Shown piece after piece: positions 1-48,913 of a DNA stretch of 64,000 nucleotides. Every line of letters starts with the position of its first letter. The first letter of the stretch is position 1. The notes below the pieces were generated by a model that worked only from the letters and a program-made list of their open reading frames with translations, made no database searches and was not told where the DNA came from. This stretch comes from a virus. Lineage: Duplodnaviria > Caudoviricetes. The translations under genes were made by a program, and so were the position numbers. Where the stretch lies: the IMG/VR virus record IMGVR_UViG_3300021082_000020, positions 30,959 through 94,958 of that record. One strand, 5' to 3'.

Positions 1-112
1 CAAAGTGCTCTTCTTCGAACAGCCGCTCGCTGACCCAGAACGGCTCGACGTAGTGCTCGTCGACGCGGGGATAGGCTTTGGCGCCGGCGGTGTGGGTCCA
101 CGGCTGGCTCAT
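1..112 (-). CDS. 5' part of DNA methyltransferase-like gene (truncated by window edge)
   Basis: MSQPWTHTAG start, homologous to 45975..46541. Confidence 0.8.
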   Translation of the reverse strand, partial: MSQPWTHTAGAKAYPRVDEHYVEPFWVSERLFEEEHF

Positions 113-321
113 CGCACGTCCTCGTTCCACTTCCACTTACCCTTGACCCAGTGGCCGTTGACCGGATCCTCACACTCGACGGCGCGGACTTCGCGTGCCG
201 AGGTCCAACGTTGTTCCAGGTCACGGGCGTAAGCCATTGCTTCGGCTTCGGTTTCGCAGCGCACCGCGTTGTCGTACCACTTCGGGTCGTTGTGGACGCG
301 CACCTCCGGTTTCCAGGCCAT
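109..321 (-). CDS. Conserved phage hypothetical protein (70 aa)
   Basis: 69/70 aa identical to 46538..46750 despite many synonymous changes. Confidence 0.85.
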   Translation of the reverse strand: MAWKPEVRVHNDPKWYDNAVRCETEAEAMAYARDLEQRWTSAREVRAVECEDPVNGHWVKGKWKWNEDVR

Positions 322-617
322 CAGGCGCTCCCCTGGACGTCGTCCAGCAGTGCTGCCGCGTTGCGCGTCATCTCTTCGTCCACGTCCTTGAACATCTGGT
401 TCATCACTGCGGACAGCTCGGCCATACCGATCTTGGCCGCCTGGTCGATGCTCATGAACGACTGCGCGGCGCCCATGAAGTAAGCTGACCGCATGGCGCT
501 GATCTGGTCTTCACCGGATCCGGCTTCGCGCAGGCTGCCGGCGAACGCGGTCCATCCCGCTTTCAACGTTAGGTCCGGGTCCAGTTCACCTTTGATAACT
601 TTGAAGATTTCAGCCAT
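321..617 (-). CDS. Hypothetical protein (YxGAA motif)
   Basis: Homologue at 46750..47040; translationally coupled. Confidence 0.75.
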   Translation of the reverse strand: MAEIFKVIKGELDPDLTLKAGWTAFAGSLREAGSGEDQISAMRSAYFMGAAQSFMSIDQAAKIGMAELSAVMNQMFKDVDEEMTRNAAALLDDVQGSA

Positions 618-1002
618 CGGCTTTCTCCAGCTGTTTGGCGCCGAGATCGGCGGCTAGCTCGTTCAATGCCGCGGTGGTTGGCGTCGGCGCCCGGTCCAGC
701 TCGTTGACACTGGCGACAAAATCCTCGGCCCGGCGTGTCAGCAATCCGATATTAGCCATTTGCGTGGTCAGTTCGATCAGCATCTTATGTAGCCGCAGCG
801 ATTCGTGGCGGTAGCGATCGCGTTCTTCGACCATCATCTGCACCCGGTCATGCTCGCGGTTTAAATCAATACGCATCTGGCTGATGGTGTTCTGGGCGTT
901 GATCAGGTCTTCGTGCATCTGCGTGACCTTGGCCAGCGCAGCCACGCGGTGGTCGTTCTCGACGTCGGGCAGCGGACGTGTCTGTTGCCGAGGTGCGTTC
1001 AT
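610..1002 (-). CDS. Coiled-coil hypothetical protein
   Basis: Start MNAPRQ chosen by comparison with 47033..47431. Confidence 0.75.
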   Translation of the reverse strand: MNAPRQQTRPLPDVENDHRVAALAKVTQMHEDLINAQNTISQMRIDLNREHDRVQMMVEERDRYRHESLRLHKMLIELTTQMANIGLLTRRAEDFVASVNELDRAPTPTTAALNELAADLGAKQLEKADG

Positions 1003-1027
1003 GGTTTTCGCCTTTCTGTTGTGAAGC

Positions 1028-1058
1028 TGCTGCGCCGGGTAGATCACCCGGCGCAGCA
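1028..1058. other. 13-bp perfect hairpin downstream of cro-like gene
   Basis: TGCTGCGCCGGGT-agatc-ACCCGGCGCAGCA; related stem at 47465-47493. Confidence 0.7.
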
Positions 1059-1072
1059 TGACCGCGGACGCA

Positions 1073-1303
1073 TTACCTTTTCGCAGCCTTTTTCGGAGCT
1101 GTTCGCATAGGCCATAGATGGTCAGGTGCATCGTGGCCGATCTCTTTCAGTTCATCTTTGAGTAGCCGGTAAGTGTCTGCTGGGAATTGCTTTCCCGCTC
1201 GCCAGTTGTAGACGCCGTTCTCCGAAGTTCCGGTTAGCTCGGCCATCGCCTCGATGCCGCCGAGCGCGTCGATGATTTCAGATGTCGTTCGTAAGGTCGT
1301 CAT
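1073..1303 (-). CDS. Cro-like HTH transcriptional regulator
   Basis: IIDALGG..AMAELTG.S.NGVYNWR HTH pattern; conserved in copy 2. Confidence 0.8.
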   Translation of the reverse strand: MTTLRTTSEIIDALGGIEAMAELTGTSENGVYNWRAGKQFPADTYRLLKDELKEIGHDAPDHLWPMRTAPKKAAKR

Positions 1304-1320
1304 ATGGAATCAGTCCTATC

Positions 1321-1371
1321 TCAACATTTTTGAGGGTGCAAGCTTGTATCTCAAAATAGTTGAATTATAGT
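1321..1371. promoter_or_regulatory. Divergent promoters with two TCAA-N5-TTGA operator boxes (1321-1333, 1351-1363)
   Basis: Both palindromes and their 30-bp spacing conserved at 47756/47786; rightward TTGTAT-16-TATAGT. Confidence 0.7.
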
Positions 1372-1379
1372 CGGGTACA

Positions 1380-1574
1380 ATGGCCGACCCGGAAACCCAG
1401 CTGCGCGAGCTGATGATGGAGGATGCGAAGGTCTATCGCATCCGCAATCAGATCGCGGAGAAGACCGATCCGCAGGCCAATAAAAATAAAGCGTACAGGT
1501 CGAAGGCGAAGGCTAAGAAGGCTGTTAATGTTGAACCTGTCGACGAACACCCAACAGAGGAACCACCCCAATGA
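1380..1574 (+). CDS. Small basic hypothetical protein
   Basis: Homologue at 47815..47991; ATGA overlap with next gene. Confidence 0.7.
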   Translation: MADPETQLRELMMEDAKVYRIRNQIAEKTDPQANKNKAYRSKAKAKKAVNVEPVDEHPTEEPPQ

Positions 1575-2356
1575 ATAAATTGCTTGGCACCGCGTTCGCG
1601 GTGTCTCTCGCTACATTTGCACTGGCGCTGCCGGCGCAGGCTGCCACCCGTATCCTCGGCGGCCAGACTTGGACGATCGGCGGCACTGACCTGACACTCG
1701 GCGGCGTCCCGGCCGGCAATCAACCGCAGAACGCGCCCTGCGTCATCTGCGGCGCGAACCAACCAAACCAAACCAACGTCGACCAGAATTTTGGTTATAC
1801 GGACTATGGCAACCAGGGGAATTTAACCTCTGAGACTTACTTTTCGTCCGGTATTCTCAGGGACACGGTGCTTGGTGCCGATACCATCTCGGCGGTCAAC
1901 TACAGCGGCACACAGTTGATCAACCTGATCACTGCGTTGGGTGGCCAGCAGACGTTCAGCATCGGCATCGATCTGAACCAGGCTAGTGGGCAGGGGCCGC
2001 AGACGCTGGAGAGCTTCTTCTTCCTCGACCTGACCAGCAAGACGGTCCTGGCGTCGTTCCTGCCGGACATTAATGACGGCATTGCGCTCAATAGCATCAA
2101 CAATGGCACGGGCTTTCCCGACTACCTATTAAACGGCCTGACCACTGCCGGGTTGGATCCCAACCATCAGTATGCGTTCTTTGCCCGCATGACCAACATC
2201 AATGACGGCCCTGACAGCTTCTTCATTGTGCCGGGTACTCAGGTGGCGGCGGTGCCGCTGCCGGCGGTCGGCGCCGGACTGCCCGCCCTGATCGCGGGGA
2301 TGTTTGGCTTGGTTGGGCTGCATCGCCGTCGGAAGCAGCGGTTGTTGTCGGCTTGA
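1571..2356 (+). CDS. PEP-CTERM/VPLPA-CTERM type exosortase-substrate surface protein
   Basis: N-terminal signal peptide (..ALPAQA); C-terminal VPLPA + hydrophobic helix + HRRRK. Confidence 0.85.
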   Translation: MNKLLGTAFAVSLATFALALPAQAATRILGGQTWTIGGTDLTLGGVPAGNQPQNAPCVICGANQPNQTNVDQNFGYTDYGNQGNLTSETYFSSGILRDTVLGADTISAVNYSGTQLINLITALGGQQTFSIGIDLNQASGQGPQTLESFFFLDLTSKTVLASFLPDINDGIALNSINNGTGFPDYLLNGLTTAGLDPNHQYAFFARMTNINDGPDSFFIVPGTQVAAVPLPAVGAGLPALIAGMFGLVGLHRRRKQRLLSA

Positions 2357-2363
2357 CCTTGCT

Positions 2364-2400
2364 GGCTCCGGCGGCGTGCATGTGAAGCGTCGCCGGGGTC
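2364..2400. terminator. GC-rich stem-loop after the CTERM gene
   Basis: GGCTCCGGCGGCG...CGTCGCCGGGGTC; conserved at 48682-48718. Confidence 0.55.
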
Positions 2401-2440
2401 GAGCTTCAAAAATGCAAAAAAATTTTGGGCGGTCTAAACG

Positions 2441-2596
2441 ATGCTGTGGGTTTTGCTAATAGGATCGGTCTGGGCGATCACCGGCTACCCGAGCAAAGAG
2501 GCGTGCCTCGAGGCATCGCGGACATCCAACTTCAGCTACGTCACATGGTGCGTGCCGATGCAGAGCACCGGCACAGTGGTGTCTGGTCACCGTTAA
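2441..2596 (+). CDS. 51-aa small protein, hydrophobic N-terminus, two Cys (not in ORF track)
   Basis: MLWVLLIGSVWAITGYPSKEACLEASRTSNFSYVTWCVPMQSTGTVVSGHR; same length and frame at 48758..48913. Confidence 0.75.
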   Translation: MLWVLLIGSVWAITGYPSKEACLEASRTSNFSYVTWCVPMQSTGTVVSGHR

Positions 2597-5500
2597 TTAC
2601 CAACCGCCAGTACTGCCCATCGGCATCGAGAATCCGCCACCACCCATATCGAAGCCACCGCCGCCACCCCAGTCGAGGCCGGCGCCGATGTTGCCGCCAC
2701 CCCAACCCCAGCCACCGAGAACCTGCGGTGAGATCGGTGACAACCCGCCGACCATGCCGCCGGACGCGGCTGTCTGATTGAGCAACGGACTCGAGTAGGT
2801 GCTGTTCTCAATGGGCGGCAGCACACCCGCCAAGGCTATGCTGCCGCCCTGGCTGCCGGGCGCGCCCGGTGCCACCGCGCCGGTCGGGATCGAACTTAAT
2901 CCCGGCGGCGCAAGAGACAGCCCGCCGGCGGTACCACCGGCGGGCGTGGCGGGCTGCGCCGGAAGCACCGGCTGGGCATCAGCCGGTGGTGGGCTCGGAT
3001 CCGGCGCAACCCGGCTTCCTTCATCGTTGTAGACATCGGTCAGGGCTTGGGCGATCTCCGGCGTCATCACCAGTTGCGGAGTTTGCGACGGTTCTGCGTA
3101 GCGCGCGTTCTTGCCGGTTGGCACACCCGGATCGGCGTCGATGTTGGTGTGTTGTTTAATGTCGTAGAAACCGGCGTCGTTAGCGAGGGCGTCTGTCCGG
3201 CCAAGCTTAGAACGATTTTGTCCGCCTTTTCTCTTGTATGGATCGCCCATATACGGATCGGATTCGGATTCAACATACATTCTGCGGTCATGAATGTTTG
3301 TCGACTCTGGCATCCGCGATGTGTCGATCGGTTTGAACGATCCGAGATGCTCGATAAATCCTGTGTTCTCTCGGTTGATGTATTCGGCCATTGCAGGATC
3401 GACATCAGGCAATGCGACAGCGCCACCTGAAGACGAGAAGTTCTGCGCCGGCAGTTCTGGCGCGTCGACCGCGGCGGTTGCGCCAGGTTTCTGGTCAGCA
3501 GCCGGTGTAACCTCCTCAGTGACGGCCGCTCCGGCGGCCGCCGCGGTCGGCTCTGGTGCCAGCCGCTTGCTGGCGCTGAAGTCGGTGGCACCCGAGGTGC
3601 CGAGGTCGAGGTCGCTGCGCTTGCCGACTGCCGCCGGCTTCGGCGCGCCCTCCTTCACCGCGGCGTCAAACTGCTGCTGGGTGATGCCCATCTTCGGCAG
3701 GTAGGGTTGCACGCCGGCGGCGATCTGGCTGCCGATGAACGGCGTGTTCATTGCCTCACGCAAGGTCTTGTTGCCGATGAAGTCCGGCACTTGACTGACC
3801 TTGCTCGGATCCCCCCGCTTGACCAGCTCGATCACCTTGGTGTCGAGCAGCGCGTGTGCCGGGTTGACCGCGGGAGCGGCTGGCGGCGCCGGCTTGGCGA
3901 CCGGCGGCGGCGCAGGGGGCGCGGCTGCCGGAGGTTTGACCGGCGCCGCTGCTGCCGCAGCCGGGGTAGTAGGGGTAGGCACTACGGCCGCGGGAGGTGG
4001 AGCTTGGGCTGCTGGTGTCGCTGCCGGTTCTTCCGGCAGCAATGTTTCCGGTTCGGTCGCCGCGATTGCGGCAGCACCCGGCGGCGCACTTGGCGTGGGT
4101 GCCGCCGCCGGAGCCGCAGCCGGCGCAGGCTTCGCTTCAGCTTGCGGGGGCTGGGCGGGAGCCTGTGCCGGAGCTGTTTTTGGTGTCGCTGCTGGATCCT
4201 GTTTGCCGCCCCAGTCCTGGGCCGCGGTCGTTCCGGCGTTTGGATTCTTGTAATAGTTCGGATTGTCGAACGCCTGCGCTTCCTGGCCGCGGCGAATGGT
4301 CAGGCCGTGCAACGGCTTCTTGGCGCCGGATGCGTCGGTGACCTTGTCGTACTGGACGAAGATCTCTTTAGCCTGCTTCCAGTCGCCGGCCTTCACCGCG
4401 GCAGCCAGGCCGGTGTTGTTCAAGGCGGCGCCGCCGGTGTTGAAGCCGAGCGAGGCGAGCGAGTTGCGGATCGCCGGCGGGGTGTTGGGGTTGAGCGCAT
4501 CGATCGTTGCCAGGTGCCGGCTCAGTTCGGCGTTCATCTCAGCCCTGGCGGTCGGCTCGTCGATGCTGGTGCGGCCCTTGGCGGCGGTGCCGTAGCCGAT
4601 GTTGGTGGTGCCATAGTCGGCGAACGACTTCGGCGTGAAGTTCTCCTTCTTGGCCACCCACTCGGTCAGCTCCGGCGGCACGCCAGCGGCGTGCGGGCCT
4701 GTCGCGGATGTAGCGGATGTAGCGGATGCCGGGTTGGAGAACGATTGCCCTTTATAGCCAGGATTGATCTGGACGTGCGGCGCGTCACCCTTGACCGGGA
4801 AGTGGACGCCAAACTTGTCCTGGTTGCCGGCGTTCAACCACTGCCGGAACGGGCTGTCGGGCAGGTCGCCGGCGCTACCCTTCTGGTGCTGCGAGTGGCC
4901 GGCCTTGGCGGCGATGCCGCCGGTGCCGGCCTCGTACTTGTCGCGGTAGATCTGCTGCACGTCGGCGCCGCGGGAGAACTCGCCGTACTGCGCCCGCTTG
5001 CCGGGGTTCTCCTTCTCGAACGCCTCGCCAGCGGCACGCAGCCGGGCGGCCAGTTCGGGATCAATCCCCTGGTAGCTGCCGGCCGCGGTCAGCGGCGCGT
5101 CGACGATCTTGCCGTCCTTCAACACACTGTGGTGACCGCCACGCTCCTGTAAGAACTTGAGATCGGCTTGGTAGGTCGGGCCTTCGGCCGATCGCTCGAC
5201 CGGCGCCCTGAGCCTGGCGCGGTTGGCGCCCGGCCCAGGCGGCCGCTCCGGCATGGCCGGCGGTGTCGGCGGCTTCACCTGCTGCTGTGCCTGCAGCTTC
5301 TGCTGCAGGGCCTTGTCCTTGGCGGCGCCGAAGCCGCCCGAGATCGTTTCACCGATGCTATCGTCACTCTGCATCGGCCGCTGCAGCGACGAGGTGACCT
5401 GGCCGACCAGCGGCTGCACCTGCAGCGGCTTGGTTTCGTCGACGTGGATGTCTTTCGCGCTCGGCCCCTTGAGTATGCGCTCGAGGAATTGGGTCATCTG

Positions 5501-5653
5501 GCTGGGCTGTGTGCCGGGTGGCACCACACCCAGGTTGACGCCGAGCGCGTGCAGCGCACGCGAAGTATCATCGCCGAGCAGCGGCTGCTTGCCGGCGATC
5601 ATCGTCTGCTTGCTCTTCTCGCGCTCGAGCGCCTGTTCGTCCATGTAGGCCAT
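2597..5653 (-). CDS. Large internal virion protein with peptidase M15-like and GH24 lysozyme-like domains
   Basis: SxHxxGxAxD...DAPHVQ motif; E..F....D...T.IGYG and GL..RR..E..F lysozyme motifs; Pro/Ala linkers. Confidence 0.75.
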   Translation of the reverse strand: MAYMDEQALEREKSKQTMIAGKQPLLGDDTSRALHALGVNLGVVPPGTQPSQMTQFLERILKGPSAKDIHVDETKPLQVQPLVGQVTSSLQRPMQSDDSIGETISGGFGAAKDKALQQKLQAQQQVKPPTPPAMPERPPGPGANRARLRAPVERSAEGPTYQADLKFLQERGGHHSVLKDGKIVDAPLTAAGSYQGIDPELAARLRAAGEAFEKENPGKRAQYGEFSRGADVQQIYRDKYEAGTGGIAAKAGHSQHQKGSAGDLPDSPFRQWLNAGNQDKFGVHFPVKGDAPHVQINPGYKGQSFSNPASATSATSATGPHAAGVPPELTEWVAKKENFTPKSFADYGTTNIGYGTAAKGRTSIDEPTARAEMNAELSRHLATIDALNPNTPPAIRNSLASLGFNTGGAALNNTGLAAAVKAGDWKQAKEIFVQYDKVTDASGAKKPLHGLTIRRGQEAQAFDNPNYYKNPNAGTTAAQDWGGKQDPAATPKTAPAQAPAQPPQAEAKPAPAAAPAAAPTPSAPPGAAAIAATEPETLLPEEPAATPAAQAPPPAAVVPTPTTPAAAAAAPVKPPAAAPPAPPPVAKPAPPAAPAVNPAHALLDTKVIELVKRGDPSKVSQVPDFIGNKTLREAMNTPFIGSQIAAGVQPYLPKMGITQQQFDAAVKEGAPKPAAVGKRSDLDLGTSGATDFSASKRLAPEPTAAAAGAAVTEEVTPAADQKPGATAAVDAPELPAQNFSSSGGAVALPDVDPAMAEYINRENTGFIEHLGSFKPIDTSRMPESTNIHDRRMYVESESDPYMGDPYKRKGGQNRSKLGRTDALANDAGFYDIKQHTNIDADPGVPTGKNARYAEPSQTPQLVMTPEIAQALTDVYNDEGSRVAPDPSPPPADAQPVLPAQPATPAGGTAGGLSLAPPGLSSIPTGAVAPGAPGSQGGSIALAGVLPPIENSTYSSPLLNQTAASGGMVGGLSPISPQVLGGWGWGGGNIGAGLDWGGGGGFDMGGGGFSMPMGSTGGW
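4704..4728. repeat. 9-bp tandem repeat (GCGGATGTA x~3) encoding Ser-Ala-Thr linker
   Basis: Direct reading; four units at 51241-51276 in copy 2. Confidence 0.85.
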
Positions 5654-7752
5654 TAGCGTCGTGGCCCCGCTAGTGGTGGTCCGCCCGGCCCGGATGCCGC
5701 CGCTGAGGCGGCGGTGATTGCTGCTGCCAGGTCAGCGATGGTGTAATCGCGCTGGAAGGGCTGGCCCTCCAGTGCATTGAGCGCGGTCGGCGACTGCATC
5801 ATCCGGCCGCCGATCGCCCGCCGGATCGGCCCGAGCGAGTAGCCGGCGATCCGTCCGGCGGTGTTGCCGCCGGGTACGCCGGTCACGGCGCTGACCGCGC
5901 TGCCGATCTGGCCGCCGACCTCGCCGGCAGTCAAACCGCCGACGACGCCTTGACTGAGATTGCCCATGGTCTGGCCAAGCCCTCCTTGTCTGGTGGGTTG
6001 GTTCAGTGCCTGGGCGATCAGTGCCAGGCGGTCGACCCGGTCGCGCTGCGGGCCTGCTATCACATCCAGCGATTCGTCCGCTATGCCCCGGACCCGGGTG
6101 GCAAGCTGCCGCGGCCCCGGCGCGCCCTGGTTCGGGCTGTTGATAGTCTGGTTGCCGAGCAGGCGCAGGTAGTCACCGAAAGTCTGGTCGAGCGGCGACG
6201 GCCCCTGCCCGCGTGCGACCGGCTGGCTGGTGGCTTCCAGCATGCGCAGCCGGGTCGGATCCTGCTCACCCTGCTTGAGGTAGTTGTAGCCGGACGCGGC
6301 ATTGGTACCGGCCCGCTCGGCTACGCCGGTGAGCTGCTCATGCGGTCCGCCCTCACCCATCGCGGCGGCGTAGCGTTCCTGGGTGCGATCGAACACGGCC
6401 GGCGGCACGCCCTGATTGACCGCGGTGCCGCGCATCTCGCGGGTAGCAGCGGCTTCGACATCGCCGGCGTAGCGGCTCGGGATCGGATCCATACCTTCGC
6501 CGGCGATCCGGGTGCCGCTGCGGAAGTCGCGCAATTGATTGTAGGTGCCACTGGTATCGAGGATGGCGCCGGTGACCGGGTCGCGTGGGAACCGCGCCTC
6601 GATCGCGTTGGCGCGGGTCTCCAGCGGCCGGGCGGTGATCGGATCGGTCTGACCTGCAGCCTGGCGCAGCGCGTCCAGCACCGGCTGCCAGTCGGCCACG
6701 GCGCCCGGCCCGACCGTCTGTGCCAGGGCTTCCTGCGGCGCCGCCACCCGGGTCCGCAGGTCGTCGGCGTTGGTCCTGGCGATGTCGCCTACCGCGGCGC
6801 CGATGTCGGCCGGCGCCGGCGTCGGATTGACCGAGCCTCTGGCGTCGGCCATGTCGTCCCAGGCGGCGCCGGTCTGGTCGCGGGCATTCATGCGGCGGTT
6901 CTGGGTGAAGGTAGACGCGCCGAAACGGTTGGCGTTGGCATTCTCCCGCATCCGTATGGTGTCGTTGCCGAGCGCGCTGGCCGGTAGTTGGACGCCCTCG
7001 ACCCGCGCCGCCTGCGCAATCTGCGGTGCTTCCGGCCGGCCCATGCCGCGGTACTTCCAGTCGATGTAGCTGCGCGGCGCCTGGCCGGCGGCACTGGCGC
7101 CACCGCCGCCGAGGATCGCGCCGAATAGCGCGCTGGTCTCCGGGTCGACGCCGGCCGTCCGGCCGACCTTCTCGCCGATGTCGGCGCCATAGTGCGAGCC
7201 GACTGTCGGCGCCACTGTGGTAGTGCCGAGCCGGGTCAATGCGGCGCGCACCGCCGCCAGCGCGTTCGGCGCCGCGGCCACGCCGCGGGCGATCGCCGAC
7301 GCGCCGCCGCCGAGCAGGGCGCTGGCGCCGCCTTCGAGCAGTTGCCGGATCGTGCTGGCATCGGCCGGCAGTGGCTCGGCGCCGACCGCGTTCAGCGCCA
7401 TCGGCCCGAGGTAGGGGATCTTGGTCTCGGGAAAGATCCCGGCCCGGGATCCGGCATTGCCGACGGCGATCGCCAGGTCGGGTATGCCGGTCAGCGCGCC
7501 GCCGCCGATCCGCGCGGCGGTGTTGTAGGCGGAATAGGGATCGCTCGGCGTGGCTGGAGCTGCGGCCGGTGCCGGAGCGGGTGTCGGCTCCGCAGTCGGT
7601 GCCGATGCCGCGGTGCCGGCCGGCGGCGCTGGCGCGGCGCCGTCCCGCAGCTGCTTGTATTGATCGGTCTTGGCCTGGAACTCAGGCGTGCCTTTCAGGT
7701 GCTGATTCTCGGTGGCCCACTGCACCAGGCTTTCCAGGGTGTCGGCCATCAC
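5653..7752 (-). CDS. Putative internal virion/DNA ejection protein
   Basis: Ala/Gly-rich 699 aa; position in podoviral core-protein cluster; homologue 52204..54330. Confidence 0.65.
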   Translation of the reverse strand: MMADTLESLVQWATENQHLKGTPEFQAKTDQYKQLRDGAAPAPPAGTAASAPTAEPTPAPAPAAAPATPSDPYSAYNTAARIGGGALTGIPDLAIAVGNAGSRAGIFPETKIPYLGPMALNAVGAEPLPADASTIRQLLEGGASALLGGGASAIARGVAAAPNALAAVRAALTRLGTTTVAPTVGSHYGADIGEKVGRTAGVDPETSALFGAILGGGGASAAGQAPRSYIDWKYRGMGRPEAPQIAQAARVEGVQLPASALGNDTIRMRENANANRFGASTFTQNRRMNARDQTGAAWDDMADARGSVNPTPAPADIGAAVGDIARTNADDLRTRVAAPQEALAQTVGPGAVADWQPVLDALRQAAGQTDPITARPLETRANAIEARFPRDPVTGAILDTSGTYNQLRDFRSGTRIAGEGMDPIPSRYAGDVEAAATREMRGTAVNQGVPPAVFDRTQERYAAAMGEGGPHEQLTGVAERAGTNAASGYNYLKQGEQDPTRLRMLEATSQPVARGQGPSPLDQTFGDYLRLLGNQTINSPNQGAPGPRQLATRVRGIADESLDVIAGPQRDRVDRLALIAQALNQPTRQGGLGQTMGNLSQGVVGGLTAGEVGGQIGSAVSAVTGVPGGNTAGRIAGYSLGPIRRAIGGRMMQSPTALNALEGQPFQRDYTIADLAAAITAASAAASGPGGPPLAGPRR

Positions 7753-9350
7753 TGCACTCCGAATGCTTCGTTACCGCGTTGGACCACCGGCGGCACTGCC
7801 GGGGCGGCAGCGCCGCGCCGCGCGCCAGTGGCTGGTGTTGCGGTGGCGGCGGCTGGATCTACGGCCCGGCCCCGCTGCAGGATGGCTTCCTTGTCGAACG
7901 GATGCATCTCCGGCATCTTCGGCACCGCCACGTTCGGGTCGACGCCGCGGCTCTTCGACACCGTGTCGCGGAAGTGATCGGTGACCACGTTGCGGTTCTG
8001 CTCGTACTCCTTCATGCGGACGTAGCCCTGCTCGATCAGGTTGGCGCGGGTCTCCGCACTCATCATGCCCTGGTCGGTGAACAGCTTGGAGTACAGCGCC
8101 GCCATCTGCTGCGCCATGGTGCCGGCGCCCTGGGTCAATTTGATTTCGCCTTCGCGCACCACCGAGCCCGGGTCGAACAGCTTGGCGATCGCGTAGACGA
8201 TCTGCAGATCGGTGGTGTTGTTGATCGGCCGGTTGGTGGCCTCGATCAGTGAGTTGTAGCTGGGTATTGCTGACAGGTAGTCTTTAACCTCCTGGGTCCG
8301 CATGACGCGGTCGGAGATGTCCAGCGGATCTCCTGCCAGGCTGCCGGTGACCCGTGACGCATTCGGATCGACCGGCGTCCCGGTGCCGGACGTCGACAGC
8401 ATGCCACCGCGGCCGAGCAGGTCGACCACATGCGGCGGCATCTCCTGGGTGTGGACGTACTTCTCTTGCTTGACGCCGTTGGCTTCCTCGAGCACGCGCG
8501 AGGATGGGTAGGCGGTCGGCGCAAAGATCGCGATGTTCATGCGCTCGGCCTGGGTGAGATCGCGGCCGACGCTTTGCCGGGCGATCACTGCCAGCCGCTC
8601 GCGGGCGGTGGATTCATCCAGCTTCGGCGTAAGATCCGTAGGTCCGGTGGTGGCGAGCGTGTGACCTGGCGGCACTGCACCGTTGGGGCCAAACAGCGGC
8701 CGGTTGGTGCCAAGCTCGGTCTTGTTGTTGTTGGTGGTGACCCGTTGCCCGGTCGGCTGGCCGTCGATGCCGATCACCGCGAGCGTGTGCGCGGCCGGTA
8801 CGCTTTTCTCTTCGCCGGTGCGGAACCGGCCGGTGGTCAGGAACTGCAAACGGTTCTGTTCGTCCTGATCGGTCGGCGCGCCGCTTAAACCGACGCGGGC
8901 CTTGGCATAGCCGCCAGGCAGGTCGCCGGCGCCCTGGTGCGCCTGCGCCCGGGCGGTCGCCTGGAAGAACGGCAGCTCGGCCTTGTAGCGTTCGGCCACC
9001 TTCGGATCGACGTACTTCTCCTGGTATGTGGTCGGCGGCAGGAAGGTCTCGCCCGGCAACGTGCTCGGGTCGGCCGGATTGACCGGCCCCTGCTGCTCGA
9101 TCGGGATGTCGCGGGTGCTCTGTGGCGGCCCGGCAGTGGCAATTGCTGCAGCCGCGGTGTCGCCGGCGGCGACGGCGGCGTCGAACTTGGCTTTGTCCTC
9201 GGCCTGCTTCTGTCGCAGCGCGACGATGTGCTCGACCGTCAGCTTCTGGTCGAGCGCCGCCTTCGGCGCGCCAGTGATGCTCTTGGCTATGTTAGTGGCG
9301 AGACTGCCCCAGGATGGATCCTGCTGGTAGGTGAGAAATTCCGATCCCAT
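7749..9350 (-). CDS. Putative internal virion/DNA ejection protein
   Basis: C-terminal K..DP.SVVREGE motif; homologue 54333..55919. Confidence 0.65.
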   Translation of the reverse strand: MGSEFLTYQQDPSWGSLATNIAKSITGAPKAALDQKLTVEHIVALRQKQAEDKAKFDAAVAAGDTAAAAIATAGPPQSTRDIPIEQQGPVNPADPSTLPGETFLPPTTYQEKYVDPKVAERYKAELPFFQATARAQAHQGAGDLPGGYAKARVGLSGAPTDQDEQNRLQFLTTGRFRTGEEKSVPAAHTLAVIGIDGQPTGQRVTTNNNKTELGTNRPLFGPNGAVPPGHTLATTGPTDLTPKLDESTARERLAVIARQSVGRDLTQAERMNIAIFAPTAYPSSRVLEEANGVKQEKYVHTQEMPPHVVDLLGRGGMLSTSGTGTPVDPNASRVTGSLAGDPLDISDRVMRTQEVKDYLSAIPSYNSLIEATNRPINNTTDLQIVYAIAKLFDPGSVVREGEIKLTQGAGTMAQQMAALYSKLFTDQGMMSAETRANLIEQGYVRMKEYEQNRNVVTDHFRDTVSKSRGVDPNVAVPKMPEMHPFDKEAILQRGRAVDPAAATATPATGARRGAAAPAVPPVVQRGNEAFGVQ

Positions 9351-9357
9351 GCTGCCC

Positions 9358-10044
9358 TCATACGCTCGTAGCTAGCGCGTTGCCGAGGCCGGTCCCGGCA
9401 ACGCTGGCGCCGGCTTGCGCTAATCCCCCAGCTGCACCGCCGCTGTACTGTGAAATCTTTATCGGCTCGACTGCCTTGGCGACGTTGTAGGCGGACAACT
9501 GTCCGGCGCGCTCGTTGCCGGCCAGGCGGATGTCCTGGCCTGCAGCATTAAAAATGCTGTTGGCGCGGTTGGTTAGGCCATACTGCGAGCCGCCGTAGGA
9601 CTGCACGTTGGCGAGGGCGGCGATACGTTTCCTCGCTTCGATCGCTGCCTGCTGGATATGCCCTTGAATGGCACTCTTCATCTCGTCGGAGCCGTTCTCC
9701 TGCCCGGAGAACATGGCAGAGGCGATCGCGTTGGGGTCGCCCTCGGCCTGGTTGGCGATGTCTTCCGGCGTCAGTGCCACCTTCAATCGATCGGCTTCGT
9801 TCTCCTGTGCCGCGGTCTGCTTCTTGGCGTCCAGCTCCTCGAGCGAGCCACTGCGCGCGGCCTCGGCATTGAGCCGCAGCTGCTCGTCGCGCTTCAGATA
9901 TTCTTGGGATTGTCTTCGCTGGTAGGCGACCCACTGATCGTTGGCAGCATTTTGCTGCGAGGCCATGTCTTGCTGCTGCTGCATGTTGTACATCGACATG
10001 CCGATGCTGAAGCCAAGACCAATGATCGAGACGGGATCGCACAT
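9358..10044 (-). CDS. Internal virion protein, T7 gp14-like MCDPVS N-terminus
   Basis: MC(D/E)P N-terminus, Gln/Ala-rich, Gly-rich tail. Confidence 0.65.
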   Translation of the reverse strand: MCDPVSIIGLGFSIGMSMYNMQQQQDMASQQNAANDQWVAYQRRQSQEYLKRDEQLRLNAEAARSGSLEELDAKKQTAAQENEADRLKVALTPEDIANQAEGDPNAIASAMFSGQENGSDEMKSAIQGHIQQAAIEARKRIAALANVQSYGGSQYGLTNRANSIFNAAGQDIRLAGNERAGQLSAYNVAKAVEPIKISQYSGGAAGGLAQAGASVAGTGLGNALATSV

Positions 10045-10056
10045 GGTTCAGCTCGG

Positions 10057-10701
10057 TTACGTTATGGTTCCAGATCCAGCCTCGCGGCCGGTCCGGGCGG
10101 CGAGTGCCTTGTTAGCCTGATACTCTCCGACCGCCGGCGCGACCGCCGAGCCCAGGCCGATGGCGATCGGCTTGAACATGTCGCCCAATGCGCCCGGGTT
10201 CGGCTGCTGCAATTGCGCGTTGCCGGCAGATGTCGCCGCGGTGTTGGCGGCGACGGTAGGGTCTTCGGTGGCGTACAGCTGGTTGTAGGCTTGCTGCTGC
10301 TGCGCCGCGATCGATTTGCGCAACTCAGCCGTATCAGTATCGGCCTTGGCCTTCAGCGCCGCCTCGTTGACGCCCTGCTGCTCGGTCAGCTTGTTCTGCA
10401 CGAAGCCGGCGGCGCCGGAGCGTAACAACCCGGCGCGCGCCAGGTCCGCTTCGGAGGTGCGCTTGGCCTCGCCGTACTGCTTCTCCAGCTGCGGCAGTGT
10501 GTAGTCCAACCCGGCCTTGCGATACTTCTCATAGAAAGCATCGCCGAAGTTGTCGTTGCCAAAGATGCTATCGATCGCCGTCTTGCCCTGATTGAGCCGA
10601 GCCTGGCGCTCGTTCTCTTTGTCGCGAGCTTCCTGGGCGCGCTGCATCTCCAGCTGCACCATTTGATTGTTCGATGGTCCGCTTCCGCCTTTACCGCCCA
10701 T
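10057..10701 (-). CDS. Putative ejection protein, MGGKGG N-terminus
   Basis: GGKGG start resembles mature P22 gp7; nearly identical in copy 2. Confidence 0.6.
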   Translation of the reverse strand: MGGKGGSGPSNNQMVQLEMQRAQEARDKENERQARLNQGKTAIDSIFGNDNFGDAFYEKYRKAGLDYTLPQLEKQYGEAKRTSEADLARAGLLRSGAAGFVQNKLTEQQGVNEAALKAKADTDTAELRKSIAAQQQQAYNQLYATEDPTVAANTAATSAGNAQLQQPNPGALGDMFKPIAIGLGSAVAPAVGEYQANKALAARTGREAGSGTIT

Positions 10702-10710
10702 GTGCTCACC

Positions 10711-11061
10711 TCATACTTGCGCGTTCGGATCGACCGGCGCCGTCTTGCTGTAGTCTGCCCAGAAGCCGGGCGGCGTCAGCACCGACTTGGCGACGATGTT
10801 GCCGGTGGAATCCTTGGTGGTCTCGGTGCCGGACACGCCCTCGGCCGGTGCGGTCGTGGTGTCTGGCTTCGAAGTGTCTTCCGCGGGCTTTGCCGTAGCG
10901 TCAGTGGCCGCTTTCTTGACGTTGATGTTCGACTGGTACCCAGTCATATCCAGCGGCGCCTTCTTGGCCAGCGTCTGCTGTGCCTCTTCCAAGGTTGCAT
11001 TGCCCGACTTGTCGAGCGGTTCCTGGTAGTACTGCTGTCCACCGCCACCCTTGCCGCCCAT
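10711..11061 (-). CDS. Small MGGKGG protein, paralog array member
   Basis: Start fixed by 57274..57621; C-terminal STG..VA.SVL.PP..W. Confidence 0.75.
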   Translation of the reverse strand: MGGKGGGGQQYYQEPLDKSGNATLEEAQQTLAKKAPLDMTGYQSNINVKKAATDATAKPAEDTSKPDTTTAPAEGVSGTETTKDSTGNIVAKSVLTPPGFWADYSKTAPVDPNAQV

Positions 11062-11069
11062 GACTACTC

Positions 11070-11540
11070 CTACTTGCTTATGCTGAGACTGCCTTGTGTG
11101 TTCGACGCTTTCTGTTTGCCCTGCGCATCCCAATTCGACGGCGGCGCCAGCAGTGTCGCGGCCAGCTGGTCGCCGGTGGTGGTCTGCAGTTTGCTGCCGC
11201 TGCTGATCGGACTGCCGGCCGAGATCGCCGGCCCGAGTGGCGCGTTCGGGTCGACTGCCGGCGCGGCCGGTGCCGCCGGTGCGGCGGCTGCGGGCGCGAC
11301 GATCGGCGGCGCCACTGGTGCCGGTGCCGGCTCTGGTGCGGGTGCGGCTACGGGCTCTGGCGTCGCCTCCGGCGCGGGCGGCGCGATCCAGTTCGGATCG
11401 GTTTCTTTGTTCCAGAAGCCGCCGTAACCGTCATATTCGGGCGGCAGGGCCGGGTTTCTGATGTATCCGCCGTAGCCGTCGTAGATCGTGTCCGGTTCGA
11501 TCCGGTAGCCGCCGTAACCATCATAGACTGAATATGGCAT
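11070..11540 (-). CDS. Pro/Ala-rich protein with three YDGYG repeats, paralog array member
   Basis: Conserved at 57631..58098; C-terminal TTG..LA.TLL.PP..W. Confidence 0.75.
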   Translation of the reverse strand: MPYSVYDGYGGYRIEPDTIYDGYGGYIRNPALPPEYDGYGGFWNKETDPNWIAPPAPEATPEPVAAPAPEPAPAPVAPPIVAPAAAAPAAPAAPAVDPNAPLGPAISAGSPISSGSKLQTTTGDQLAATLLAPPSNWDAQGKQKASNTQGSLSISK

Positions 11541-11547
11541 GGCCCAC

Positions 11548-11919
11548 CTATCTGGTTGTGCTGATGCTGCCAGGCGTGGTCGCCGGCCGCTGCGATTGAT
11601 TTGCCCAAATCGACGGCGGTGGCAGCAGCGACCCAGCCAGGAGAGCGCCGGTGGATTGCGGCGGGCCGCCGCCAGGTTGCAGCTTGCTGACGATCGGACC
11701 GCCGGCCGGGATTGCCGGGCCGAGCGGCTCGACTGGCGCCGCGGCCGCGGGAGCGGCCGGTGCCACTGGCGGCGCCACCGGCGCCGGTGGCGGTGCCATC
11801 TGCGCCGGCGCCATCGGCAGGTTCAGTGGTGGCGGCGCCGCCGGTGCCGGTTCCGGTTCCGCTGCCCAGCCCGGTTCGGATCCCCAATGATAACCGCCGC
11901 CTATGTCGTTCCAAGGCAT
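11548..11919 (-). CDS. Pro-rich protein, paralog array member
   Basis: Conserved at 58106..58474; C-terminal STG.LLA.SLL.PP..W. Confidence 0.75.
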   Translation of the reverse strand: MPWNDIGGGYHWGSEPGWAAEPEPAPAAPPPLNLPMAPAQMAPPPAPVAPPVAPAAPAAAAPVEPLGPAIPAGGPIVSKLQPGGGPPQSTGALLAGSLLPPPSIWANQSQRPATTPGSISTTR

Positions 11920-12437
11920 CAGAGCACCACCGTGAAAATCATGCCGACCGGCTCGCCACCGAAGTGCCGACCGATCATGTTCATCAGTGAGTTCTGCTCC
12001 GGCATACCGGAGCAGATTGGGAAGTTGATCACCTTGCAGCCGTCGCGGCGGGCCAAGGTGATGACCATGTCGACCAAGCGGCGGCCGAGGTCGGTGCGCT
12101 GGTACTTCGGGATGGTGTAGGTCTCGTCCATCACGCCCATCGGCTCGGAGAACACATCGAACACATGGTAGCTGCAGACGCCGACCAGCTTGTTGTTGTC
12201 CAGCGTATCGAGCGCGATGACGTACATGGCGAACTGGGTGCCGACCGCGTTCGCTAAGTAGCGTTCGGATTTCTCCCGGTGATACTTCAGGTGCTTGGCC
12301 CAGCCGGACAGCTCGAAGAACTCGCCGAGGAAGTCGGCAAGCATCGGAGCGTCGGCCGATTCCGCCATGCGGACGTTAATGTGCGGGGTACGCACCGTCC
12401 GCTTTGGTTTTGGTAGTTTGATAACCGGAATATTCAT
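11919..12437 (-). CDS. GNAT family N-acetyltransferase
   Basis: VRMAE.AD start; YTIPKYQRTDLGRRLV acyl-CoA-binding motif A region. Confidence 0.8.
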   Translation of the reverse strand: MNIPVIKLPKPKRTVRTPHINVRMAESADAPMLADFLGEFFELSGWAKHLKYHREKSERYLANAVGTQFAMYVIALDTLDNNKLVGVCSYHVFDVFSEPMGVMDETYTIPKYQRTDLGRRLVDMVITLARRDGCKVINFPICSGMPEQNSLMNMIGRHFGGEPVGMIFTVVL

Positions 12438-12894
12438 CAGCCAGCCACCTGTACGAAATGAAGTCCTCACCCTCGATGCCATAGCCGGACAGCACGCCTT
12501 CGGCCCTGGCGCCAATTAAACTCATGAATCTGCGGACATCATCCCGGTGGCGTAGTGCCACCGCATCAACGCGGTGTATTCCGAGGTCGACCAACATCGG
12601 TAGAACGAAACCACGGATCTGCCGCATCATTGGTAACACGGCGCGACCCCAGTCGTCAGTGCCGAAGGCGAAGCCGGCAGCCACACCCTGGCGTTTCAGC
12701 ACCGCGCCCCAGACTGAGATCGGGCCGCGGTCGAGGCTCCAGGCGCAATACACAAACAGCTTGTGCCGCATGATCAACCCTGGCAGCCGCTCCATGTCGG
12801 TGCCAGCCGCGGTCATCTCGGCTACGTCTTCCTCGCGCATGTGCTGCAGCACATGCCGGATTATGCCGACGTCGGCCTGCGCGATCTCGATCAT
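12376..12894 (-). CDS. GNAT-fold virion-assembly protein (T7 gp13-like)
   Basis: MR..D..EM motif, RF..LIGA..EG.L.GYG..GEDF tail; directly after nozzle gene. Confidence 0.6.
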   Translation of the reverse strand: MIEIAQADVGIIRHVLQHMREEDVAEMTAAGTDMERLPGLIMRHKLFVYCAWSLDRGPISVWGAVLKRQGVAAGFAFGTDDWGRAVLPMMRQIRGFVLPMLVDLGIHRVDAVALRHRDDVRRFMSLIGARAEGVLSGYGIEGEDFISYRWLADEYSGYQTTKTKADGAYPAH

Positions 12895-14327: not shown

Positions 14328-14339
14328 CTACTCCCTCCA

Positions 14340-15763: not shown

Positions 15764-15777
15764 AGTCTCTCCCTAAT

Positions 15778-15823
15778 GAAAAAGACCGGAGTGCTAAGAG
15801 TGTCCGCTCCCCGCACTCCGGTC
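15778..15823 (-). terminator. Rho-independent terminator after MCP
   Basis: 11-bp stem GACCGGAGTGC/GCACTCCGGTC followed by a U-tract on the minus strand; compensatory change in copy 2. Confidence 0.75.
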
Positions 15824-15834
15824 CCGCGCTGCGA

Positions 15835-16953: not shown

Positions 16954-16969
16954 TTAAGCACCTCTGGAA

Positions 16970-47806: not shown

Positions 47807-47814
47807 GGCATTCA

Positions 47815-47991
47815 ATGAATGATCCTGAGGCTCAACTCCGCGAACTGATGTTGATCGATGCGAAGGTCTTTCGCGTCCGTAATCAGATCGCGGAAAAGAC
47901 CGACCCCAATGCGAAGAAGTACAAAACCAAGGCTAAAAAGCCTGTTAAAGTTGAACCGGACGACATCACACCAAAGGAACCACAACCATGA
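47815..47991 (+). CDS. Small basic protein (copy 2)
   Basis: DPE.QLRELM..DAKV.R.RNQIAEKTDP shared. Confidence 0.7.
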   Translation: MNDPEAQLRELMLIDAKVFRVRNQIAEKTDPNAKKYKTKAKKPVKVEPDDITPKEPQP

Positions 47992-48674
47992 GATATTTAC
48001 TTGGCGCCGCCCTGGCGGCGTCTCTTGCTATGTTTGCTTCGGCATTGCCGGCGCAAGCAACTATTCTGCTTGACGAAACCGGCATCGGCGGCACTGGAAA
48101 TAACGTGATATTTTCCAGCATCGCCAACTCCGGCTTGATCCTTGGCCGCCTCAACGGCCAAAACGATGAGGTCGTAAGGTTCTTGGACCGCTCGGCCTTC
48201 AACCCTGACGGCGGCATATTGGCCGGTCTGTTCTCTGGATCAGCCAACGGCAACGACATCAAGATCGTAAACACCAGCGAACTTGATATCACGGTCTTCG
48301 ACCGCAATAACCTCACGCAGCTCACCACTACGCGAGACATCTTCTCCATCGTCGGAACAGGCACCCTGCTTATTCGTGCGACCGCCTTGGAAGCAGACGG
48401 CAGCTTTCAGGACTTCCTGTTCAGCAGCATTCTGAAGAACGGCCAGAACGGCTTCGACTTGAAGGCTATCGACGGCGAGCGGATCTGGGATGTTGACTTC
48501 CGGGTTGTCGGCGGCAGTATCACCGACTTTGAACACTTCCGTATCGACGTGGCGCCGCAGGTTGCGGCGGTGCCGCTGCCGGCAGTTGGCACCGGACTGC
48601 CTGCCTTGGTTGCGGGAATGTTTGGCTTGGTTGGACTCCACCGGCGCCGTAAGGCGCGACTGTTGGCGGTCTAA
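47988..48674 (+). CDS. PEP-CTERM/VPLPA-CTERM protein with a different passenger domain
   Basis: Signal peptide plus VAAVPLPAVGTGLPALVAGMFGLVGLHRRRK. Confidence 0.85.
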   Translation: MRYLLGAALAASLAMFASALPAQATILLDETGIGGTGNNVIFSSIANSGLILGRLNGQNDEVVRFLDRSAFNPDGGILAGLFSGSANGNDIKIVNTSELDITVFDRNNLTQLTTTRDIFSIVGTGTLLIRATALEADGSFQDFLFSSILKNGQNGFDLKAIDGERIWDVDFRVVGGSITDFEHFRIDVAPQVAAVPLPAVGTGLPALVAGMFGLVGLHRRRKARLLAV

Positions 48675-48757: not shown

Positions 48758-48913
48758 ATGCTGTGGGTTCTACTAATAGGATCGGTCTGGGCGATCACAG
48801 GATACCCAAGCAAAGAGGCGTGCCTCGAGGCGGCGAGGACGACCGACTTCGGTTACGTCACACGGTGCGTTCCGATGCAGAGCACTGGCACGGTGGTGAG
48901 CGGTCACCGTTAA
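48758..48913 (+). CDS. 51-aa two-Cys small protein (copy 2)
   Basis: Homology to 2441..2596. Confidence 0.75.
   Translation: MLWVLLIGSVWAITGYPSKEACLEAARTTDFGYVTRCVPMQSTGTVVSGHR

What the first reader, a model, noticed from the sequence alone, without database searches (positions are those of the whole stretch)
1571..2356. Phage-encoded PEP-CTERM/VPLPA-CTERM surface protein with an exchangeable passenger domain
Seen: both copies keep the signal peptide (..ALPAQA) and a nearly identical tail QVAAVPLPAVG(A/T)GLPAL(I/V)AGMFGLVGLHRRRK. The mature domains (~1645-2240 vs ~48060-48557) cannot be aligned by eye. Established: PEP-CTERM-type tails are processed by bacterial exosortases linked to EPS and surface display; no exosortase is encoded here. 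Inference: the phage uses the host exosortase to display a variable protein on infected cells (superinfection exclusion, receptor masking or aggregation), diversified by recombination between conserved flanks.
Basis: partly seen in the sequence, partly recalled or inferred. Interest (0 to 1): 0.8.

Follow-up and report, generated by a model that had tools for sequence, protein, structure and literature searches.

The report
Phage secreted proteins with swappable sorting tails
Two related phage genomes carry, in the same slot, genes for exported sugar-binding-like proteins that share an export signal and a bacterial-style C-terminal sorting tail but have unrelated middle domains. In relatives both the middle domain and the tail are swapped as separate modules, which suggests the phages feed their own cargo into a host envelope-sorting route.

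Summary
Window 1571-2356 (261 aa) and 47988-48674 (228 aa) share a signal peptide and a 38-residue tail. DNA homology stops at the signal-peptidase site and resumes at the tail. The passengers do not align, even profile to profile.

It scores 9.7 bits against the VPLPA-CTERM model (cut-off 25.35) and matches no PEP-CTERM model. It belongs to an uncatalogued class: VPxPxxGxGxP, a TM helix, then an Arg/Lys cluster.

This class still behaves like a sorting signal:
- It ends at least 1,229 protein clusters with many different passengers.
- In orthologues of both passengers the same position holds tails that pass the curated VPLPA-CTERM or PEPxxWA-CTERM models.
- In 18 of 18 viral loci with two tailed genes, both tails are of one class.

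Both passengers are large, mostly viral families with CBM-like beta-sandwich models. In this phage lineage the slot holds A or B, with at least 3 switches.

Exosortase dependence is unproven. The host was not identified, and two of five genomes rich in related tails showed no EpsH homologue. The biological role is inferred.

The scan has noted the same family and tail class on other phage DNA before. I found no published description.

The parts
1304..1379 (.). Divergent regulatory intergenic region between the Cro-like HTH gene (1073-1303, -) and the orf64/passenger operon (+). It carries two repeated TCTCAA..TTGA operator-like sites that are conserved in copy B.
   Evidence: DNA alignment of the two copies. 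The HTH protein matches phage DNA-binding and regulator PHROGs. One sigma-70-like site on the minus strand, not above shuffles.
1380..1574 (+). orf64, a small Lys-rich protein of unknown function. Its stop overlaps the start of the passenger gene (ATGA), so the two are probably co-transcribed and translationally coupled.
   Evidence: A homologue lies directly upstream of the A or B gene in 18 viral loci. No PHROG match.
1571..1642 (+). Signal peptide of copy A (residues 1-24, ending ALPAQA, SPase I type, no lipobox Cys).
   Evidence: AlphaFold helix 3-17. DNA homology with copy B ends at its last codons.
1643..2239 (+). Passenger A (residues 25-223): a beta-sandwich with an invariant CxxC (C57, C60) and the conserved motifs FSSG, NGTG and DGPDSF.
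   Evidence: Family of 507+ clusters. Alignments A1 and A2. Model pLDDT 87.6. CBM-like matches at Z up to 6.6. Nearest Atlas clusters are 97-100% viral.
2240..2353 (+). Sorting-type tail of copy A (residues 224-261): the VPLPA..GAGLP motif, a hydrophobic helix (~232-250), the basic cluster H-R-R-R-K, then six more residues.
2366..2400 (+). GC-rich hairpin (14-bp stem) just after the stop codon, conserved in copy B. Possibly a terminator or an RNA-stability element.
   Evidence: Folding gives -35.5 kcal/mol, z -2.45. Conservation.
2441..2596 (+). orf51, a conserved small protein with a hydrophobic N-terminus, lying between the passenger gene and the convergent virion hydrolase gene.
   Evidence: About 90% DNA identity between the copies. 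Homologues in 7 syntenic viral loci. No PHROG match.
47815..47991 (+). orf64 homologue of copy B.
47988..48059 (+). Signal peptide of copy B (residues 1-24, ending ALPAQA).
48060..48557 (+). Passenger B (residues 25-190): a jelly-roll beta-sandwich without Cys, unrelated in sequence to passenger A.
   Evidence: Family of 247+ clusters. Alignment A3. Model pLDDT 79.7. CBM29/CBM22-like matches: Foldseek E ~1e-3 to 1e-4 and VIA Z 6-8.3.
48558..48671 (+). Sorting-type tail of copy B (residues 191-228).
48758..48913 (+). orf51 homologue of copy B.

Best explanation
Each of the two tandem phage genomes carries a non-structural accessory gene in a short operon (orf64, then the gene). The operon diverges from a Cro-like regulator gene and converges on the virion hydrolase gene.

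The product is built from three independent modules:
1. A Sec/SPase I signal peptide.
2. A CBM- or lectin-like beta-sandwich passenger, of type A or type B.
3. A PEP-CTERM-like tail: a proline motif of the form VPxPxxGxGxP, a TM helix, and an Arg/Lys cluster.

Shown: the modular anatomy, the exact cassette boundaries, the repeated reassortment of passenger and tail among hundreds of uncultured phages, and the multi-passenger nature of the tail.

Inferred: after export the protein sits in the inner membrane by its tail, with the passenger in the periplasm. A host, tail-class-specific sorting enzyme (an exosortase or an unrecognised analogue) then cleaves near the proline motif and passes the passenger to the outer envelope or exopolysaccharide. 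There the glycan-binding-like domain alters the surface of the infected cell, for example by masking receptors, excluding other phages or changing aggregation. The tail class would be matched to the host, and the passenger would be the exchangeable effector.
For: Anatomy:
- Signal peptide, passenger and tail are seen in the sequence and the models.
- Cassette boundaries fall at the signal-peptidase site and at the tail start.
- The passengers are not alignable by BLASTP or hhalign.

The tail behaves as a sorting signal:
- A profile of the tail finds 1,229 clusters (50% identity representatives) at E<=1e-3, almost all at the extreme C-terminus.
- The 85 full-length proteins among the 150 best hits fall into 50 passenger clusters. 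Only 6 of these proteins are family A or B.

The tail is interchangeable with bona fide signals:
- P0004, 89% identical to P0001, carries a tail that passes TIGR03370. So do P0016, P0022 and P0133 (family B), at 29-32 bits against a cut-off of 25.35.
- P0086, P0099 and P0173 pass NF035944 (39-43 bits against 35) and TIGR02595.
- 31 of 119 family B members match PEPxxWA-CTERM at E<=0.01.

The tail tracks the genome, not the passenger:
- In 18 of 18 viral loci with two tailed genes, both tails are of the same class. This includes 5 loci of the rarer classes.
- The one bacterial homologue of B (L009, an alphaproteobacterial MAG) ends in the same tail, within one residue, as several of 8 PEP-CTERM-tailed ORFs (7 of them other genes) of that genome.
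- On passenger-only trees, tail class changes at least 18 times in A and at least 10 times in B.

The passenger is exchanged in one slot:
- 14 syntenic genomes hold A (4) or B (10), with at least 3 switches on each flank tree.

The gene is phage-borne:
- 203 and 106 IMG/VR contigs encode A and B relatives.
- Family A has no relative in 185,579 species genomes by the pattern scan.
- Its nearest Atlas clusters are 97-100% viral.

The folds are CBM-like.
Against: - The tail here fails every curated sorting-signal model.
- The host of this tail class was not found. Its DNA pattern was at chance level in 401 (class), 41 (family) and 151 (order) genomes, and the tail profile found none in a class sample of 301 or a phylum sample of 401 genomes.
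- Co-occurrence with an exosortase could therefore not be tested for this class.
- Two genomes rich in related tails gave no EpsH-family hit: G001 with 8 PEP-CTERM tails and G259 with 6 VPLPA-CTERM hits. Three others did have one.
- No cleavage, localisation or phenotype data exist.
- Fold matches are middling (Z 5-8) and show no function.
- The phage shows no integrase in the notes on this genome, so a lysogenic-conversion role is uncertain.
- The FastTree topologies behind the switch counts are not robust, so those counts may be inflated.
Confidence: 0.55

Rival explanations
1. The protein is a plain bitopic inner-membrane protein. The tail is only a stop-transfer anchor (TM helix plus positive-inside cluster) and is never processed. 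The periplasmic beta-sandwich acts at the inner membrane or in the periplasm, for example as a superinfection-exclusion factor that blocks genome entry of incoming phages, in the manner of the early T4 proteins Imm and Sp (established knowledge).
For: - The tail fails the curated sorting models.
- No exosortase is found in the phage, nor in two genomes rich in related tails.
- The gene sits next to an early-type regulatory region.
- AlphaFold predicts a single C-terminal helix.
Against: - A mere anchor would not need the conserved proline/glycine motif upstream of the helix. That motif is shared by at least 1,229 clusters.
- It would not need to be swapped for host-type VPLPA or PEPxxWA tails in orthologues.
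- It would not need to agree in class between co-resident genes.
- My test of one specific version failed: passenger type does not track the hydrolase domain type, so the passenger is not an inhibitor matched to the phage's own hydrolase domain.
Confidence: 0.3
2. The two passengers are just strongly diverged alleles of one ancestral gene (uniform decay). The conserved ends only reflect stronger constraint on signal peptide and anchor, and no cassette exchange took place.
For: - Both models are CBM-like beta-sandwiches.
- They share several of the same middling PDB neighbours, such as 9mui_A, 9jsf_A, 1wky_A and 7kwc.
Against: - The homology breaks are abrupt, at module borders, in DNA that is otherwise 78-86% identical.
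- Each passenger is itself a well conserved family (mean column identity 49-51%, many invariant positions).
- There are no intermediates, and no profile-profile signal outside the tail.
- Close flanks carry different passengers: the HTH gene of L064 is 97% identical to that of copy A, but its passenger is only 52% identical. Passenger type changes at least 3 times on the flank trees.
Confidence: 0.05
3. The protein is a lysis or virion component: a unimolecular spanin-like protein (N-terminal signal plus C-terminal TM, as in T1 gp11) or a secreted virion-associated adhesin.
For: - The signal-plus-C-terminal-TM architecture resembles a u-spanin (established knowledge).
- The gene abuts the virion hydrolase gene.
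Against: - There is no lipobox cysteine. Passenger A has Cys only at 57 and 60, and passenger B has none.
- The gene is on the opposite strand from the structural genes, in an operon with a regulator-adjacent small gene.
- The same families occur in many unrelated phage contexts. Only about 35 of 165 viral loci are even partly syntenic.
- There is no PHROG match.
Confidence: 0.05

Closest known systems
PEP-CTERM / exosortase (EpsH) sorting system (Haft et al. 2006, PMC1569441; TIGR02595, PF07589)
   Same: [quoted passage not shown]
- A C-terminal tripartite tail: a proline motif, a TM helix and a basic cluster.
- The tail occurs on many unrelated passengers.
- Orthologues of both passengers carry genuine PEP-CTERM tails.
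   Different: - The motif has no Glu (VPLPA..GAGLP in place of PEP).
- It fails both models.
- It is encoded by a phage without an exosortase.
- The host and its sorting enzyme are unknown.
VPLPA-CTERM (TIGR03370) and PEPxxWA-CTERM (NF035944) tail variants of Alphaproteobacteria
   Same: - The first five residues of the motif are V-P-L-P-A.
- The tail holds the same position in the same protein families. P0004, 89% identical in the passenger, passes TIGR03370.
   Different: - After VPLPA the tail here continues with a Gly-x-Gly-x-Pro segment that the model lacks.
- It scores 9.7 bits against a cut-off of 25.35.
- It belongs with the far commoner VPGPxxGAGLP class, for which NCBIfam and Pfam have no model.
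Flocculation-associated PEP-CTERM protein PepA of Zoogloea (NF033554; Gao et al. 2018, as cited in PMC12642866)
   Same: - A small secreted beta-rich PEP-CTERM protein.
- 16 of 119 family B members give sub-threshold hits that reach into the passenger.
   Different: - The best score is 38 bits against a cut-off of 80.
- P0002 itself gives no hit.
- The hits lean on the tail, so this is not membership.
Phage morons and early superinfection-exclusion membrane proteins (for example T4 Imm and Sp; established knowledge)
   Same: - A small accessory gene outside the structural and replication modules.
- An exported or membrane-bound product.
- Mosaic presence and exchange among relatives.
   Different: - No sequence or fold relation.
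- It carries a host-type sorting tail, which those proteins lack.
- Exclusion activity is untested.

Membership tests
PEP-CTERM domain proteins (TIGR02595 / PF07589) | Score at or above the curated cut-off of the PEP-CTERM models | tested here: not met
   Whole proteins and isolated tails give no hit to TIGR02595 or PF07589, even at E<=10.
PEP-CTERM domain proteins (TIGR02595 / PF07589) | Near-invariant Pro-Glu-Pro motif | tested here: not met
   The motif is V-P-L-P-A, without Glu.
PEP-CTERM domain proteins (TIGR02595 / PF07589) | Motif followed by a TM helix and a basic cluster at the extreme C-terminus, with an N-terminal signal peptide | tested here: met
   Residues 232-250 are hydrophobic, followed by H-R-R-R-K. 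The signal peptide ends ALPAQA. AlphaFold predicts helices 3-17 and 236-260.
PEP-CTERM domain proteins (TIGR02595 / PF07589) | The tail occurs on several unrelated proteins of the host genome, and the host has an EpsH-family exosortase | not testable with these tools
   The host was not identified. The tail class was not found in about 1,000 Pseudomonadota genomes searched. In metagenomes the tail ends at least 1,229 clusters, but these carry no taxonomy.
VPLPA-CTERM (TIGR03370) | Score at or above 25.35 bits | tested here: not met
   Copy A scores 9.7 bits (E 0.85). Copy B gives no hit. The orthologues P0004, P0016, P0022 and P0133 do pass, at 29-32 bits.
PEPxxWA-CTERM (NF035944) | Score at or above 35 bits | tested here: not met
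   The window proteins give no hit. The orthologues P0086, P0099 and P0173 pass, at 39-43 bits.
Unimolecular spanin (T1 gp11 type) | N-terminal lipoprotein signal with a lipobox Cys, plus a C-terminal TM helix | tested here: not met
   There is no Cys in or just after the signal peptide. Passenger A has Cys only at 57 and 60, and passenger B has none.
Carbohydrate-binding-module-like beta-sandwich (fold level only) | Structural match to CBM or galactose-binding-like domains that stands clear of the background | tested here: inconclusive
   Passenger A: best VIA Z is 6.6, and Foldseek gives nothing at E<=1e-3. Passenger B: Foldseek matches CBM29 at ~1e-3, and VIA gives Z 6-8.3 to many CBMs. Both lie within the range the tool calls common.

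The most novel reading that the evidence does not exclude
Uncultured soil and freshwater phages carry a three-module cargo system in which a host-specific C-terminal sorting tail and a lectin-like effector domain are exchanged independently. The tail class here (VPxPxxGxGxP, TM helix, Arg cluster) is an undescribed bacterial sorting signal, possibly served by an enzyme outside the recognised EpsH family. Its class on a phage gene would then predict the host. The passenger alleles would act as allele-specific surface modifiers, through receptor masking or exclusion.
Probability: 0.25. Interest if true: 0.8.

Novelty: new variant of a known kind. Interest (0 to 1): 0.6.

Why it matters
If the reading is right, phages use a bacterial C-terminal sorting pathway for their own cargo. 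I found no published description of this: full-text searches gave only incidental mentions.

It would matter in three ways:
- It points to an uncatalogued, very widespread tail class (at least 1,229 protein clusters) that annotation pipelines currently miss.
- It offers a sequence marker for phage-host matching, because tail class follows the resident genome.
- It gives a tractable natural experiment, with the same slot and the same tail carrying different passengers, for asking what such surface proteins do during infection.

It is not categorically new. The architecture is that of PEP-CTERM proteins, and this scan has met the same family and tail class on other phage DNA.

Tried and rejected
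1. Passenger as an inhibitor matched to the phage's own virion hydrolase domain. Rejected: in syntenic loci A and B passengers combine freely with the two hydrolase mid-domain types.

2. Unimolecular spanin. Rejected: there is no lipobox.

3. Finding the host of the tail class.
- The DNA pattern for V-P-x-P-x-x-G-[AT]-G-x-P was at chance level in 401 (class), 41 (family) and 151 (order) genomes around the one bacterial homologue.
- The tail profile found no such tail in a class sample of 301 genomes or in 401 genomes of the phylum.
- The correct wording is 'not found in those searched', not 'absent'.
- The lead from earlier notes that Bradyrhizobium-type genomes hold this tail could not be tested, because I could not reach such genomes.

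4. tblastn against plasmids with the tail and with two tail-bearing proteins: no match.

5. P0001 against 50,697 deposited phage genomes: no match. The capsid protein finds only Microcystis phage Mae-Yong1326-1 (52%) and Rhizobium phage RHph_N65 (40%).

6. Tail-only word search: 9 hits, not informative.

7. Cluster look-up of ten tail-bearing proteins: all metagenomic, with no names or taxa.

8. Kinship with PepA (NF033554): sub-threshold and largely driven by the tail.

9. Foldseek against PDB and BFVD for passenger A: nothing at E<=1e-3.

11. The promoter and terminator consensus scan found nothing above shuffles.

Genomes G041 and G241 are flagged unpublished.

Full report
**Setting**

The window is bases 30959-94958 of a single 94,958-bp virus record. 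A self-comparison shows that the record is two related genomes of about 47 kb laid head to tail. They are 74-88% identical in DNA, with roughly ten non-homologous blocks. PHROG matches identify large terminase, portal, major head protein, tail-fibre-like proteins, DNA polymerase, primase and helicase. It is a double-stranded DNA phage without close cultured relatives: the capsid protein is 52% identical to that of Microcystis phage Mae-Yong1326-1 and 40% to that of Rhizobium phage RHph_N65. The record has no tRNA gene and no exosortase homologue.

**The observation**

The ORF at 1571-2356 encodes 261 aa (P0001). Its positional counterpart at 47988-48674 encodes 228 aa (P0002).
- Both start with a 24-residue signal peptide ending ALPAQA.
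- Both end with a 38-residue tail: a V-P-L-P-A motif, a Gly-x-Gly-Leu-Pro segment, a hydrophobic stretch of about 19 residues, H-R-R-R-K and six further residues.
- BLASTP aligns only the tail (35/47 identical, E 5e-20) and faintly the signal peptide.
- In DNA, homology stops at the last signal-peptide codons and resumes at the first tail codons, which agrees with the genome-wide comparison.
- Profile-profile comparison of the two families aligns 41 tail columns and nothing else.

**What the tail is**

Against NCBIfam and Pfam, the whole proteins and the isolated tails reach no curated threshold. The best relevant score is 9.7 bits for VPLPA-CTERM (cut-off 25.35), and there is no PEP-CTERM hit.

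The relatives tell a fuller story. Both passengers define large families: 507 and 247 clusters at E<=1e-3. Within each family the same position holds one of three tail classes:
1. VP-x-P-x-x-G-A-G-[LI]-P, a TM helix and an Arg cluster. This is the majority class, and the window tails belong to it.
2. Canonical VPLPA tails.
3. PEP/PEL-x-x-W-A tails.

Class 2 tails pass TIGR03370 at 29-32 bits. They include P0004, whose passenger is 89% identical to P0001. Class 3 tails pass NF035944 (39-43 bits against 35) and TIGR02595. Class 1 matches no model.

A profile of six class-1 tails, searched against 1.84 billion cluster representatives, gives 1,229 proteins at E<=1e-3. Nearly all matches lie at the extreme C-terminus. 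The 85 full-length proteins among the 150 best hits fall into 50 passenger clusters, and only six of these proteins are family A or B. A short C-terminal domain shared by many unrelated exported proteins is what Haft et al. (PMC1569441) took as the signature of a sorting signal.

**The tail follows the genome, not the passenger**

- Among 165 viral loci with a tailed ORF, 18 hold two tailed genes. In all 18 the two tails are of the same class, including five loci of the rarer classes 2 and 3. Some of these loci are near-duplicates.
- The single bacterial homologue is B-type, 39% identical, and lies on an integrase-bearing island of an alphaproteobacterial MAG (L009). It ends in the same tail, within one residue, as several of 8 PEP-CTERM-tailed ORFs (7 of them other genes) of that genome.
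- On passenger-only trees, tail class changes at least 18 times in A (120 sequences) and at least 10 times in B (117 sequences). Shuffled labels give 24-31 changes. These are FastTree topologies, so the counts are rough.

**The passengers**

- A is overwhelmingly viral. 203 IMG/VR contigs encode relatives. The pattern scan found none in 185,579 species genomes. Its nearest ESM-Atlas clusters are 97-100% viral.
- B occurs in 106 IMG/VR contigs. The language-model search places it beside bacterial PEP-CTERM clusters.
- AlphaFold models are confident: pLDDT 87.6 for A and 79.7 for B. Both are beta-sandwiches followed by a poorly ordered linker and a C-terminal helix.
- A has an invariant CxxC.
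- Structure searches give CBM- or galactose-binding-like neighbours at middling scores. A reaches Z up to 6.6, and B reaches Z 6-8.3 with Foldseek E ~1e-3 to CBM29. A glycan-binding role is a reasonable guess, no more.

**Cassette exchange in this lineage**

Fourteen genomes share the order HTH regulator, orf64, tailed gene, (orf51), virion hydrolase. Four carry A and ten carry B. Trees of the upstream and the downstream flank each need at least three A/B switches. L064 has flanks nearly identical to copy A (HTH 97%), yet its A-type passenger is only 52% identical. So there are at least three cassette forms. In other phages a second tailed gene with yet another passenger often follows directly.

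**Mechanism**

Shown: modules, borders, reassortment, multi-passenger tail.

Inferred: Sec export, anchoring by the tail with the basic cluster in the cytoplasm, processing by a host enzyme specific for the tail class, and delivery of a lectin-like domain to the envelope.

The exosortase step is open. Of five alphaproteobacterial genomes with related tails, three have a strong EpsH-family hit, and in G138 that gene lies about 4 kb from a tailed gene. G001 (8 PEP-CTERM tails) and G259 (6 VPLPA-CTERM hits) have none by PF09721; G001 also has none by TIGR02602 or TIGR04178. These are draft genomes, so absence is not proven.

The host of class 1 was not found in about 1,000 genomes searched. Earlier notes of this scan attribute the class to Bradyrhizobium-type bacteria with a divergent exosortase. 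I could not test that.

**Rivals**

- Anchor-only inner-membrane protein, about 0.3. It fits the failed models and the missing exosortases. It does not explain the conserved motif or the host-matched tail swaps.
- Uniform divergence of one gene. It is contradicted by the sharp borders and by the flank trees.
- Spanin or virion roles. They lack the lipobox and the expected gene position.
- The idea that the passenger neutralises the phage's own hydrolase domain. It fails because the two vary independently.

**Novelty**

The architecture is that of PEP-CTERM proteins. What is new is the uncatalogued tail class, its carriage by phages, and the independent exchange of tail and passenger. Full-text searches found no description of phage-borne exosortase-type cargo. 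One 2026 preprint mentions a PEP-CTERM domain on a Dehalococcoides mobile element. The scan itself has flagged the same family and tail on other phage DNA.

**Limits**

Genomes G041 and G241 are unpublished and support no claim here.

Noticed in passing
whole record; window 1-17010 vs 46430-64000: The 94,958-bp record is two diverged (~74-88% identical) complete phage genomes laid head to tail, with no host DNA between them. Contigs of 81-86 kb in the protein searches hint that the same doubling recurs elsewhere. It could be a real concatemer, tandem prophages or an assembly join. This was not resolved.
   Followed up: partly
window 2597-5653 and 49202-52204 (-): The ~1,000-aa virion cell-wall hydrolase has two internally swapped domains. 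In related phages these mid-domain types reassort independently of the neighbouring passenger type.
   Followed up: partly
window 2441-2596 and 48758-48913 (+): A 51-aa ORF with a hydrophobic N-terminus and two Cys is about 90% conserved between the copies and is present in 7 syntenic viral loci. It has no family match and its function is unknown.
   Followed up: partly
window 2366-2400: A 14-bp GC-rich hairpin lies directly after the stop codon and is conserved in copy B. No U-tract follows, so it is not a classic intrinsic terminator.
   Followed up: partly
window 48937-49194 (+): Copy B alone has an extra ~85-aa ORF between orf51 and the hydrolase gene. It begins M-D-W-Q-P-I-E-T-A-P. It has no homologue in the 168 viral loci examined.
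   Followed up: no
window 1304-1379: Two operator-like repeats (TCTCAA, 5-7 nt, TTGA) sit between the divergent Cro-like gene and orf64, and are conserved in both copies. They suggest that the HTH protein controls the passenger operon.
   Followed up: no
L136 6693-7280; L192 6690-7418; L120 6843-7523; L181 8027-8602; L170 6788-7339; L087 6739-7368: In other phages a second tailed gene follows the A or B gene. It has a different, family-less passenger and always a tail of the same class.
   Followed up: partly
L009 9950-10609 (+), alphaproteobacterial MAG CAVXTR010000012.1: This is the only bacterial homologue found (B-type, 39%). It lies beside integrase-like and primase-like genes, so it sits on a mobile island. 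It carries the tail used by the genome's own PEP-CTERM proteins, while no EpsH-family gene was detected in that genome.
   Followed up: partly
G138:C6:48328-49077 and G138:C6:52908-53003: An EpsH-family exosortase gene lies about 4 kb from a gene ending in a VPLPA-like tail in one alphaproteobacterial genome.
   Followed up: no
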